From NCBI RefSeq assembly GCF_001677475.2, contig NZ_CP015229.1: DNA of 64,000 bases. One strand, written 5' to 3'. Each line of letters starts with the position of its first letter. The stretch's first letter is position 1. Position numbers and translations under genes: made by a program. The notes under the pieces were generated by a model, which was not told where the DNA came from, searched no databases, and was given only the letters and a program-made list of their open reading frames with translations. Origin of the DNA: Escherichia coli. Its GTDB lineage: Bacteria > Pseudomonadota > Gammaproteobacteria > Enterobacterales > Enterobacteriaceae. Positions 47,415 through 49,316 of this stretch are shown piece after piece.

Positions 47415-48308
47415 ATGAGCAAAAAGCAGAGTTCCACCCCACACGATGCGCTGTTCAAACTCTTTTTACGCCAACCGGAGACGGCACGCGATTTTCTTGC
47501 GTTTCATTTACCGGCACCCATTCACGCGCTCTGTGATATGAAAACCCTCAAGCTGGAGTCGAGCAGCTTTATTGATGACGATCTGCGTGAAAGCTATTCC
47601 GACGTGCTGTGGTCGGTGAAAACGGAACAAGGACCAGGATATATCTATTGTCTGATTGAACATCAAAGCACCTCAAACAAACTGATCGCATTTCGCATGA
47701 TGCGTTACGCCATTGCCGCAATGCAAAATCACCTTGATGCCGGATACAAAACGTTGCCGATGGTGGTGCCATTGTTGTTTTACCACGGTATTGAAAGCCC
47801 CTATCCCTATTCGCTGTGTTGGCTGGATTGTTTTGCCGATCCCAACCTGGCAAGGCAGCTTTATGCCTCTGCATTTCCGCTGATTGATGTCACCGTCATG
47901 CCTGATGATGAAATCATGCAGCACCGACGCATGGCGCTGCTGGAGTTAATTCAAAAACATATCCGTCAACGCGATCTGATGGGGCTGGTAGAGCAAATGG
48001 CCTGCTTATTAAGTAGTGGATACGCTAATGACAGACAAATCAAAGGGCTGTTTAATTACATCTTGCAAACCGGCGATGCGGTACGTTTTAACGATTTTAT
48101 CGACGGCGTTGCCGAACGTTCACCGAAACACAAGGAGAGTTTAATGACTATTGCGGAAAGATTGCGGCAGGAAGGGTTTCAGAAAGGTATACGTACCAAC
48201 GCCCTAAATATTGCCAAAACCATGCTGGATGCCGGAGTCTCTCTTGAGGACGTTCTGCGATTTACCAGCCTGACGGTTGAAGACCTTGCTGAAATAAATC
48301 ATCAATAA
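47415..48308 (+). CDS. rpnA: Recombination-promoting nuclease RpnA (YhgA-like, PD-(D/E)XK transposase_31 family)
   Basis: 297-aa ORF recognised as YhgA/RpnA; exact start uncertain by a few codons. Confidence 0.8.
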
Positions 48309-48325
48309 CGTAAAGGATGGTTTTA

Positions 48326-48499
48326 ATGACAGATGCAGAAAGAGAATATCTTATTAGTTACCTGATTGGTTATTTATTGGGTCGACGCCTGGAAGCCCTG
48401 GATATCGCCAAAAGAATGCTGTAATCCTGAGTCCCTCTTGCGGACATCATGCGTTTTACCGGGGTGTCAGAAGAAGAGTTGGCTGCGGCGAGTCAGTAA
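48326..48499 (+). repeat. Diverged, frame-broken tandem duplicate of the rpnA 3' tail (includes a 32-codon ORF at 48326-48424)
   Basis: Nucleotide and peptide similarity to rpnA 48144-48308: atgacagatgcagaaaga... vs atgactattgcggaaaga...; ...LDIAKRML vs ...LNIAKTML; VPLADIMRFTGVSEEELAAASQ* vs [23 protein letters not shown]. Confidence 0.6.
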
Positions 48500-48527
48500 A
48501 GTTCTGTCTCGCCATTTCAAAAGCTGT

Positions 48528-49316
<789 letters not shown>

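What the first reader, a model, noticed from the sequence alone, without database searches (positions are those of the whole stretch)
48326..48499. Degenerate duplicate of the rpnA 3' tail immediately downstream of rpnA
The 174 bp after rpnA repeat the last ~165 bp of rpnA (48144-48308) with substantial divergence. Both copies start atgac..gc.gaaaga and both end with a related ...RFT...EEL/EDLA...Q* peptide, but the second copy has an internal TAA at 48422-48424 and a frame shift. It still contains a 32-codon ORF ([32 protein letters not shown]) with an SD-like aagga upstream. Tail duplications like this could drive C-terminal diversification of Rpn nucleases by recombination, or the ORF could be a stand-alone small protein.
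Basis: seen in the sequence. Interest (0 to 1): 0.5.

Follow-up and report, generated by a model that had tools for sequence, protein, structure and literature searches.

The report
Broken spare antitoxin copy after rpnA
The 174 bases after the E. coli rpnA nuclease gene are a stop-codon-broken second copy of the small antitoxin module at the end of rpnA, a gene arrangement already described next to two sister genes, so it is real but mostly ordinary.

Summary
The duplication is real. Window 48326-48499 is a diverged copy of 48144-48308 (local alignment score 57 against 15.7 +/- 2.2 for shuffles; 91 nt at 73% and 22 nt at 82% identity). The copied unit includes the Shine-Dalgarno site and the ATG.

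Copy 1 is rpnA_S, the intragenic antitoxin of the RpnA toxin (Zhong et al. 2023; PDB 7TH0). Copy 2 is a stand-alone downstream RpnS gene ("rpnA_Ss"). That paper describes the same arrangement for rpnE-ypaA and rpnC, but its text does not mention rpnA.

There is no frameshift. Copy 2 stays in one frame and is broken by TAA (48422-48424) and TGA (48428-48430). What remains is a 32-codon ORF that encodes only the predicted helix alpha1.

Of 5,426 complete E. coli genomes, 853 carry the two-copy form, and 852 of those have the TAA. Intact 57-aa versions sit at the same locus in E. ruysiae and in rare E. coli-like contigs; one is also on record for E. whittamii.

The K-12 RpnA tail differs from a two-copy allele by one 206-bp indel that joins copy 1's start to copy 2's end (3,552 genomes). 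O145 strains and E. albertii carry other fusions. The copy has therefore fed tail diversification.

Most likely this is a young pseudogene. It is a new member of a known kind, of modest interest.

The parts
47415..48308 (+). rpnA, the full-length toxin RpnA_L (297 aa); it appears intact
   Evidence: ORF list. NCBIfam NF007361 RpnA equivalog scores 675 bits, above the 583 cut-off. Pfam Transposase_31 matches residues 8-209, E = 2.8e-91.
48132..48137 (+). Internal Shine-Dalgarno AAGGAG of rpnA_S, 6 nt before its ATG
   Evidence: Read from the sequence. The RBS and start of rpnA_S were validated by mutation in K-12 by Zhong et al. (PMC10400941).
48144..48308 (+). Copy 1: rpnA_S, the gene-within-gene antitoxin and C-terminal HTH_Rpn_C domain (54 aa)
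   Evidence: The translation is [54 protein letters not shown]. NF007361 positions 244-292 match. The same 165 nt are present in E. ruysiae.
48309..48325 (+). 17-nt spacer carrying the duplicated SD (AAGGA, 48313-48317); an alternative in-frame ATG lies at 48317
   Evidence: No terminator-like or promoter-like site lies between the rpnA stop and copy 2, so co-transcription with rpnA is inferred.
48326..48499 (+). Copy 2: nonsense-disrupted stand-alone RpnS gene (rpnA_Ss); one reading frame throughout
   Evidence: The repaired translation matches PDB 7TH0 (RpnA-S) at E = 1.1e-13. Intact 57-aa orthologues at the same locus carry PF27070 HTH_Rpn_C. PGAP annotates it in some genomes as a pseudogene with an internal stop.
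48326..48424 (+). Residual 32-codon ORF ([32 protein letters not shown]) plus the TAA; it equals predicted helix alpha1 only
   Evidence: ORF list. The AlphaFold model of the repaired protein has helices at 3-33, 38-45 and 49-56, with mean pLDDT 93.8. The ORF is called 'hypothetical protein' on more than 1000 contigs.
48347..48382 (+). Three 12-nt (four-amino-acid) repeats, YLIS / YLIG / YLLG, in helix alpha1
   Evidence: Read from the sequence. Copy number varies: P0022 has an extra YLIS, and E. albertii P0012 and P0014 differ by YLISYLLDR units.
48422..48424 (+). TAA nonsense codon at codon 33 (E, Q or Y in intact relatives)
   Evidence: It is present in 852 of 853 two-copy complete E. coli genomes. 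The codon is GAA in K-12, L013 and L014, and CAA in E. ruysiae and E. albertii.
48428..48430 (+). Second nonsense codon TGA at codon 35 (GGA elsewhere); specific to one lineage
   Evidence: The window-type 39-mer occurs in only 24 of 5,426 complete genomes. It is GGA in all other sampled alleles.
48431..48499 (+). Untranslated remainder of copy 2 (VPLADIMRFTGVSEEELAAASQ*), orthologous to helices alpha2-alpha3 of K-12 RpnA_S
   Evidence: The alignment to 7TH0 residues 11-49 runs across this stretch. The window region 48393-48528 is 123/136 identical to the K-12 tail and downstream spacer.
48528..49298 (-). bioH, the convergent neighbour that bounds the locus
   Evidence: ORF list and the annotation of homologous loci.

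Best explanation
The segment is a nonsense-inactivated stand-alone copy of the RpnS antitoxin module, which I call rpnA_Ss here.

Shown:
- It is a paralogue of rpnA_S, the small protein translated from inside rpnA that blocks the toxic nuclease RpnA_L.
- It was duplicated together with its ribosome-binding site and start codon, and it lies 17 nt after the rpnA stop.
- Intact 57-aa versions occur at the same locus in E. ruysiae and in rare E. coli-like contigs. An intact 57-aa version is also on record for E. whittamii, though I did not inspect its locus. The repaired window sequence is predicted to fold as a three-helix protein.
- In essentially all E. coli that carry it, codon 33 is TAA. In this strain codon 35 is also TGA.
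- At most a 32-residue peptide can be made, corresponding to predicted helix alpha1 with its YLIS/YLIG/YLLG repeats. Helices alpha2 and alpha3 are lost.
- Single in-frame indels relate this copy to the chimeric RpnA tails of other strains.

Inferred:
- The intact protein acts as a second RpnS-type partner of RpnA.
- The copy is co-transcribed with rpnA.
- The truncated copy here is a young pseudogene.
- Its lasting effect is evolutionary. As a homeologous direct repeat it has recombined with the rpnA tail. The K-12-type tail arose from one 206-bp in-frame deletion of an intact two-copy allele. The O145-type tail arose from a different junction of about 195 bp. E. albertii carries a larger deletion.
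For: - The duplication is statistically real and includes the SD and ATG.
- The repaired copy 2 matches the RpnA-S crystal structure sequence 7TH0 at E = 1.1e-13. Its model (pLDDT 93.8) has 7TH0 as the top Foldseek hit, with probability 1.00 and TM-score 0.80 normalised to the target.
- Intact 57-aa orthologues lie between rpnA and bioH in E. ruysiae and cryptic-clade contigs and carry PF27070 HTH_Rpn_C. An intact 57-aa protein is listed for E. whittamii.
- The architecture matches K-12 rpnE-ypaA, read here directly: stop codon, then AAGGAGAGATTA, then the ATG of a second tail with one extra four-residue repeat. Zhong et al. detected the ypaA product and named the class RpnSs.
- The TAA is in 852 of 853 two-copy genomes and no sense-codon neighbour was found among complete genomes. 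The extra TGA occurs only in this sub-lineage, as expected for neutral decay downstream of a stop.
- Fusion alleles exist with defined junctions.
- There is no Rfam match, no better-than-shuffle RNA fold and no terminator or promoter consensus that would suggest another kind of element.
Against: - The pre-stop ORF is unusually invariant. Among six distinct TAA alleles it has 1 variable site in 96 nt, against 7 in 75 nt after the stop (Fisher p = 0.022). The SD and ATG are kept in every sampled allele. This could mean the 32-codon ORF is under constraint.
- That invariance is confounded. A 287-nt tract without a single mismatch is shared even with E. ruysiae, which looks like a recent recombination tract.
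- The post-stop part also has no indels, so decay is minimal overall.
- No expression or activity data exist for this locus.
- The polarity of the K-12 indel (deletion or insertion) is inferred, not proven.
- The Pfam-A copy available to profile_search lacks PF27070 and gave no hit. The family assignment therefore rests on precomputed hits, NCBIfam, PDB sequence similarity and the predicted fold.
Confidence: 0.72

Rival explanations
1. The TAA is not a defect. The conserved 32-codon ORF encodes a functional alpha1-only micro-protein. For example, it could be a dimerisation-helix decoy that tunes RpnA_L/RpnA_S oligomerisation.
For: - The TAA is fixed in 852 of 853 carriers.
- The SD at 8-nt spacing and the ATG are homologous to the validated rpnA_S start and are retained in all sampled alleles.
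- There is 1 variable site in 96 nt before the stop against 7 in 75 nt after it (p = 0.022).
- The stop falls exactly at the end of predicted helix alpha1. Helix alpha1 is the dimer interface in the RpnA_S crystal (PMC10400941).
- A variant with one extra in-frame YLIS repeat ends at the same stop (P0022).
Against: - The low diversity is shared with the adjacent spacer and with copy 1, and extends across species as a mismatch-free tract. A recombination tract or sweep explains it without selection on the ORF.
- Helix alpha1 of copy 2 (YLISYLIGYLLG) is unlike that of copy 1 ([13 protein letters not shown]). Changing a single repeat unit abolishes cognate recognition in RpnC.
- Low-frequency missense variants of the 32-aa ORF exist.
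- Any 12-nt slippage preserves the frame regardless of function.
- There are no expression data.
Confidence: 0.12
2. The polarity is reversed. A K-12-like single tail is ancestral. A horizontally acquired cassette of about 206 bp (the 3' part of a new tail, a spacer and the 5' part of another tail) was inserted. This displaced the original tail end downstream, where it decays, in the manner of orphan C-terminal modules of polymorphic toxins.
For: - K-12 and L013 differ by a single 206-bp indel with GGGG microhomology, and either direction needs only one event.
- The extra segment lies within the tract that is 100% identical between E. coli and E. ruysiae, whose flanks differ by about 8%. It has therefore spread recently.
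- Zhong et al. depict rpnC_Ss and rpnE_Ss as insertions.
Against: - The two copies are only about 73% identical at best, whereas K-12 is 29/29 and 147/150 identical to the two parts of L013. The duplication is therefore much older than the indel.
- E. albertii retains diverged YLIG/YLIS repeats fused to rpnA (86.7% identity to the window). That part of the 'extra' segment is therefore old in the genus.
- Deletion between direct repeats is mechanistically simpler than such a precise insertion (general knowledge).
Confidence: 0.3
3. The copy is a silent donor cassette for frequent tail switching of RpnA, possibly stimulated by RpnA itself. It would be maintained for that purpose rather than decaying.
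For: - At least three independent fusion junctions are seen in nature.
- The O145 junction lies downstream of the TAA, so the stop would not be transferred.
- Zhong et al. speculate that RpnL may initiate such recombination.
Against: - Each fusion deletes the donor, so switching is one-way and not reusable.
- Each allele class is clonally widespread rather than variable within lineages. The exact junctions occur in 3,362 and 41 genomes respectively.
- No recombination signal sequences or inverted repeats with significant structure were found.
Confidence: 0.08
4. The similarity is chance or a compositional artefact, and there is no real duplication.
For: None, beyond the low identity (about 47% at the amino-acid level) in the middle of the repeat.
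Against: - The alignment lies about 19 sd above shuffles.
- Repeat blocks of 91 nt and 22 nt are in register.
- tblastn gives E = 6e-7 to 1.5e-9.
- Intact orthologues carry the same Pfam domain.
Confidence: 0.01

Closest known systems
RpnE_Ss (YpaA) downstream of rpnE, and RpnC_Ss downstream of rpnC, in E. coli (Zhong et al. 2023, PNAS; PMC10400941)
   Same: - A second copy of the rpn C-terminal (RpnS) module sits immediately after the rpn stop codon and was duplicated together with its SD and ATG.
- It differs from the upstream copy in the number of four-residue repeats.
- It can be lost by deletion or by fusion to the rpn N-terminal domain.
- I read the K-12 rpnE-ypaA sequence here and the layout is the same.
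   Different: - This copy is at rpnA, a locus the paper's text does not list (0 occurrences of 'RpnASs'). I could not see the paper's figures.
- The two copies are old and diverged (47-51% amino-acid identity), whereas rpnE and ypaA are nearly identical.
- The repeats are mostly hydrophobic (YLIS/YLIG/YLLG) rather than one hydrophobic plus three charged or glycine residues.
- The copy is nonsense-truncated in 852 of 853 E. coli carriers.
RpnA_S, the intragenic antitoxin of RpnA (PDB 7TH0)
   Same: - The repaired copy 2 aligns to 7TH0 residues 11-49 at E = 1.1e-13.
- It is predicted to have the same three-helix fold.
- The K-12 protein that was crystallised shares its C-terminal 38 residues with this copy's lineage.
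   Different: - It is a separate gene rather than a gene-within-a-gene.
- Its helix alpha1 sequence is different.
- In this window it is truncated after alpha1.
Stand-alone DUF4351 / HTH_Rpn_C (PF14261 / PF27070) small proteins
   Same: Intact orthologues (P0001-P0010, P0049) are 57-aa single-domain proteins with precomputed PF27070 hits.
   Different: The window copy is not an intact member. The 35-aa ORF alone matches no NCBIfam model.
Displaced 'orphan' C-terminal toxin/immunity cassettes downstream of rhs and cdiA genes (from my own knowledge, not tested here)
   Same: Partial copies of a variable C-terminal module lie downstream of the main gene. They share a homologous 5' junction and can recombine with the main gene to change its tip.
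   Different: - Here the module is the antitoxin/oligomerisation domain itself, not a toxin tip with a separate immunity gene.
- Only one cassette is present.
- Each recombination deletes it.

Membership tests
RpnS / HTH_Rpn_C domain (PF27070; Rpn C-terminal antitoxin module) | Sequence homology to the C-terminal domain of Rpn proteins | tested here: met
   - Repaired copy 2 against 7TH0 RpnA-S: E = 1.1e-13.
- NCBIfam NF007361 positions 254-292: E = 2.9e-12.
- Intact orthologues carry precomputed PF27070 hits.
- The Pfam-A copy used by profile_search lacks this family.
RpnS / HTH_Rpn_C domain (PF27070; Rpn C-terminal antitoxin module) | Compact three-alpha-helix bundle with a long first helix | tested here: met
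The AlphaFold model has pLDDT 93.8 and helices at 3-33, 38-45 and 49-56. The top Foldseek PDB hit is 7TH0. The ORF as encoded in the window stops at residue 32 and cannot form the bundle.
RpnS / HTH_Rpn_C domain (PF27070; Rpn C-terminal antitoxin module) | Four-amino-acid (12-nt) repeats in helix alpha1 whose number varies between strains | tested here: met
   - The repeats are YLIS/YLIG/YLLG at 48347-48382.
- P0022 has four units, and E. albertii P0012 and P0014 differ by repeat blocks.
- Copy 1 alleles differ by a 12-nt indel.
- The composition (three hydrophobic residues plus G or S) departs from the published 'one hydrophobic plus three charged or glycine' pattern.
RpnSs (separately encoded downstream RpnS homologue, sensu Zhong et al. 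2023) | Located directly downstream of an rpn gene, on the same strand, with its own SD and start codon | tested here: met
   A 17-nt spacer follows the rpnA stop. AAGGA lies 8 nt before the ATG at 48326. The layout matches K-12 rpnE-ypaA.
RpnSs (separately encoded downstream RpnS homologue, sensu Zhong et al. 2023) | Intact ORF encoding the whole RpnS module | tested here: not met
   TAA at 48422 and TGA at 48428. The TAA is in 852 of 853 two-copy complete E. coli genomes. The ORF is intact only in E. ruysiae, E. whittamii and rare contigs. The window copy is therefore filed as a pseudogene or remnant of the class, not as a functional member.
RpnSs (separately encoded downstream RpnS homologue, sensu Zhong et al. 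2023) | The protein is synthesised | not testable with these tools
   No ribosome-profiling or proteomic data for a two-copy strain were available. The 32-aa ORF is only a gene-caller prediction in public records.
Rpn toxin-antitoxin / antiphage system | The small protein blocks the toxicity or nuclease activity of the cognate RpnL | not testable with these tools
   This needs genetics or biochemistry. PADLOC-DB 2.0.0 has no model that matches RpnA or the small protein.
Rpn toxin-antitoxin / antiphage system | Intact PD-(D/E)XK Rpn nuclease partner gene adjacent | tested here: met
   rpnA at 47415-48308 scores 675 bits on NF007361 (cut-off 583) and carries Transposase_31 at E = 2.8e-91. I did not inspect the catalytic residues individually.

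The most novel reading that the evidence does not exclude
The fixed TAA creates, rather than destroys, a gene. On this reading, a 32-residue alpha1-only peptide with hydrophobic YLIS/YLIG/YLLG repeats is translated from the inherited rpnA_S-type start site. It would act as a dimerisation-helix decoy, for example an anti-antitoxin that modulates RpnA_L/RpnA_S pairing. That would explain why the SD, the ATG and the pre-stop codons are nearly invariant in 853 genomes while the post-stop part drifts.
Probability: 0.1. Interest if true: 0.6.

Novelty: new member of a known kind. Interest (0 to 1): 0.3.

Why it matters
Rpn nucleases with their intragenic RpnS antitoxins are a recently recognised toxin-antitoxin and antiphage system. 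Their specificity sits in the variable tail.

- **A third E. coli locus.** rpnA, the best-studied member, also had a separate downstream RpnS gene. This extends the RpnSs arrangement beyond rpnC and rpnE.
- **Origin of the crystallised tail.** The crystallised K-12 RpnA_S tail plausibly descends from a fusion with that downstream gene.
- **A natural allele series.** The locus offers intact, nonsense, and two kinds of fusion alleles for testing how tail exchange resets toxin-antitoxin matching.
- **Annotation.** About 16% of complete E. coli genomes carry a segment that is unannotated, called a 32-aa 'hypothetical protein', or labelled a 'transposase' pseudogene. "rpnA_Ss pseudogene" would be a better name.

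None of this overturns current understanding.

Tried and rejected
- **Frameshift claim.** Rejected. A single frame spans the whole copy.
- **RNA element.** Rejected. There is no Rfam match above noise. The RNA folds of 48280-48390 and 48100-48530 are no better than shuffles (z = 0.19 and 0.41). The 21-nt inverted repeat 48293-48313 / 48358-48378 is therefore treated as chance.
- **Own promoter, or a terminator between rpnA and the copy.** None was found by the consensus scan. This is weak negative evidence only.
- **Pfam scan of the intact 57-aa protein.** No hit. This was traced to the library copy lacking PF27070, because it also misses the domain in full-length RpnA.
- **PADLOC.** No model matches.
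- **Protein search with the copy 1 tail, to find which other Rpn proteins carry it.** It returned only 7 short fragments and was uninformative for polarity.
- **Search with the RpnA N-domain for an outgroup.** The next relatives outside Escherichia RpnA are about 70-73% identical (Citrobacter, RpnB-like) or are mosaics. No syntenic outgroup was obtained.
- **Species-representative genome scan with a 21-mer from copy 2.** It found only E. albertii, plus a chance hit in a glycine dehydrogenase gene.
- **Selection test on the 32-codon ORF.** It is suggestive (p = 0.022) but confounded by the cross-species identical tract, so I do not use it as evidence of function.
- **Supplement of Zhong et al.** The text and figure legends do not mention an rpnA downstream copy. 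The figures themselves are not held, so prior depiction cannot be excluded.
- **Other rpn genes or tails in the window.** None.

Full report
**Setting.** The window carries feoB-feoC, then rpnA (47415-48308, + strand, 297 aa), then a 219-nt interval, then convergent bioH (48528-49298, - strand). rpnA scores 675 bits on the NCBIfam RpnA equivalog (cut-off 583) and has the Transposase_31 domain. The window holds no other rpn gene or tail.

**Observation check.** The 174 nt at 48326-48499 are a diverged direct repeat of the last 165 nt of rpnA (48144-48308).
- The local alignment scores 57, against 15.7 +/- 2.2 (maximum 29) for 1000 shuffles.
- The repeat finder reports 91 nt at 73% identity and 22 nt at 82% identity. 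Their spacings differ by 12 nt.
- At the protein level, tblastn gives E = 6e-7 to 1.5e-9.
- The homology begins upstream of the ATG and includes the Shine-Dalgarno site (AAGGAGAGTTTAATGAC against AAGGATGGTTTTAATGAC).

The frameshift is not. One frame reads [55 protein letters not shown]. The disruption is therefore two nonsense codons, TAA at codon 33 and TGA at codon 35 (48428-48430).

**What copy 1 is.** The stretch 48144-48308 is rpnA_S. Zhong et al. 2023 (PMC10400941) showed that all five E. coli rpn genes contain an internal translation start. That start produces the variable C-terminal domain as a separate small protein, RpnS, which binds and blocks the toxic full-length nuclease RpnL. 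They also reported that RpnS is a dimeric three-helix bundle with a long helix alpha1. This helix carries four-amino-acid repeats that vary between strains and set RpnL/RpnS specificity.

**What copy 2 is.**
- With the two stops repaired, copy 2 matches the crystallised RpnA-S (PDB 7TH0) over residues 19-57, E = 1.1e-13.
- It models confidently (pLDDT 93.8) as three helices at 3-33, 38-45 and 49-56. 7TH0 is the top structural match.
- Intact 57-aa versions exist as separate called genes with the HTH_Rpn_C domain (PF27070). They lie between a 297-aa rpnA and bioH in E. ruysiae, in cryptic-clade contigs and in a few metagenome contigs. An intact 57-aa protein is also listed for E. whittamii.
- The layout is the one Zhong et al. 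named RpnSs, described for rpnE-ypaA and for rpnC in some strains. I read the K-12 rpnE-ypaA sequence directly. The rpnE stop is followed by AAGGAGAGATTA and the ATG of a second tail that has one extra four-residue unit.
- The paper's text and supplementary legends do not mention an rpnA-linked copy. I could not see its figures.

**Population picture.**
- 853 of 5,426 complete E. coli genomes have the two-copy form.
- A 34-mer spanning TAA-TCC-GGA matches 828 of them. Every 28-nt seed word within that 34-mer contains the TAA.
- A composite query tested all nine single-base neighbours of TAA plus the window's TAA-TCC-TGA. It matched only the window type, in 24 genomes.
- So 852 of 853 carriers have the TAA. 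None has a sense codon on that background. The TGA is a later change in one sub-lineage, as expected downstream of an existing stop.
- Intact relatives have GAA, CAA or TAY at this codon.
- PGAP sometimes labels the copy a 'transposase' pseudogene with an internal stop. It also labels the expressed ypaA a pseudogene, so this flag carries little weight.
- The 32-aa ORF is called 'hypothetical protein' on more than 1000 contigs.

**Recombination products.**
- **K-12 type.** The K-12 RpnA tail ([11 protein letters not shown]|EQSKALHIAKIMLESGVPLADIMRFTGLSEEELAAASQ) matches the first 29 nt of copy 1 (29/29) plus the last 150 nt of the interval of the metagenome allele L013 (147/150). The difference is a single in-frame 206-bp indel at a GGGG microhomology. 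That junction occurs in 3,552 genomes.
- **O145 type.** O145 strains carry a different chimera, copy 1 up to RFT followed by the copy 2 end, in about 45 genomes.
- **E. albertii.** This species retains only rpnA codons 42-69 fused in frame to copy 2's repeats, with CAA at the stop position.

The copies are far more diverged from each other (73% at best) than K-12 is from either part. E. albertii also holds diverged YLIG/YLIS repeats. I therefore infer that the two-copy state is older and that the K-12 tail is a deletion fusion. I put this at about 65-70%. The reverse, cassette insertion, is not excluded. Zhong et al. already state in general terms that rpnSs genes can be lost by deletion or by fusion to the rpn N-terminal domain.

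**Is the 32-codon ORF functional?**

For:
- The SD and ATG are homologous to the validated rpnA_S start.
- The stop lies exactly at the end of predicted helix alpha1, and alpha1 is the dimer interface.
- Among six distinct TAA alleles there is 1 variable site in 96 nt before the stop, against 7 in 75 nt after it (p = 0.022).

Against:
- The window and E. ruysiae share a 287-nt tract with no mismatch (48072-48358). The flanking genes are only 89-93% identical and the post-stop part is 92% identical. The low diversity therefore looks like a recently exchanged tract that also covers copy 1 and the spacer.
- The alpha1 sequences of the two copies are unrelated in their repeat region.
- Missense variants of the ORF exist.

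I rate function of the peptide at roughly 10%.

**Other possibilities excluded.** There is no Rfam family, no significant RNA structure, and no promoter or terminator consensus between rpnA and the copy. Co-transcription with rpnA is inferred from this.

**Verdict.** The finding is real, with one descriptive error. It is a nonsense-truncated rpnA_Ss, a new locus-level member of the published RpnSs class. It is probably a young pseudogene. Its relatives have contributed, by in-frame fusion, the tail now found on most E. coli RpnA proteins. Interest is modest at 0.3. The invariant tract shared across species remains unexplained.

Noticed in passing
window 48072-48358, against L010/L011 (E. ruysiae) and L007: A 287-nt tract has no mismatch between E. 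coli and E. ruysiae. It covers the end of the rpnA linker, all of rpnA_S, the spacer and the first 33 nt of copy 2. The flanking feoB, feoC, bioH and gntX are 89-93% identical. This suggests either recent exchange of the tail cassette between species or constraint at the nucleotide level.
   Followed up: partly
L006 696-1110 (E. coli O145 RM9154-C1, NZ_CP031353.1): An AbrB/MazE antitoxin plus PemK/MazF toxin pair is inserted between rpnA and bioH in O145 strains, which also carry the chimeric rpnA tail. The rpnA-bioH gap appears to be an insertion hot spot for toxin-antitoxin modules.
   Followed up: no
L021, L022, L003 (ST131 strain 4993; O2:H1 HM670; strain 118UI): rpnA itself is inactivated in some lineages. 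It is annotated as an N-terminally truncated pseudogene in ST131 and O2:H1, and an IS5 element lies within or adjacent to it in 118UI.
   Followed up: no
L015 1501-1737 (E. albertii CP034212.1); P0012, P0014: E. albertii keeps a 78-aa or 96-aa ORF that joins RpnA residues 42-69 to the copy 2 module. The two forms differ by extra YLISYLLDR units, so repeat expansion occurs in 27-nt as well as 12-nt steps.
   Followed up: partly
L026 4668-4865 (K-12 RP437, ypaA / rpnE_Ss): PGAP annotates ypaA as a pseudogene 'missing N-terminus', although Zhong et al. detected its product. Automatic pseudogene calls on RpnSs genes are therefore unreliable.
   Followed up: yes
P0069, P0071, P0072 (metagenome-derived Rpn proteins): Some Rpn proteins are mosaics, with RpnA-identical segments joined to RpnB-like or Citrobacter-like segments. 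This indicates recombination between rpn paralogues beyond the tail.
   Followed up: no
window 48293-48313 / 48358-48378: A 21-nt inverted repeat (81% complementary) brackets the SD and start of copy 2. The predicted fold is no better than shuffled sequence (z = 0.19), so it is probably chance.
   Followed up: yes
window 48194-48205 (copy 1), against L005, L014, L020: Some two-copy alleles lack 12 nt (one four-residue unit, NALN) in copy 1. This changes the functional rpnA_S/RpnA_L tail by one repeat while copy 2 is unchanged.
   Followed up: partly
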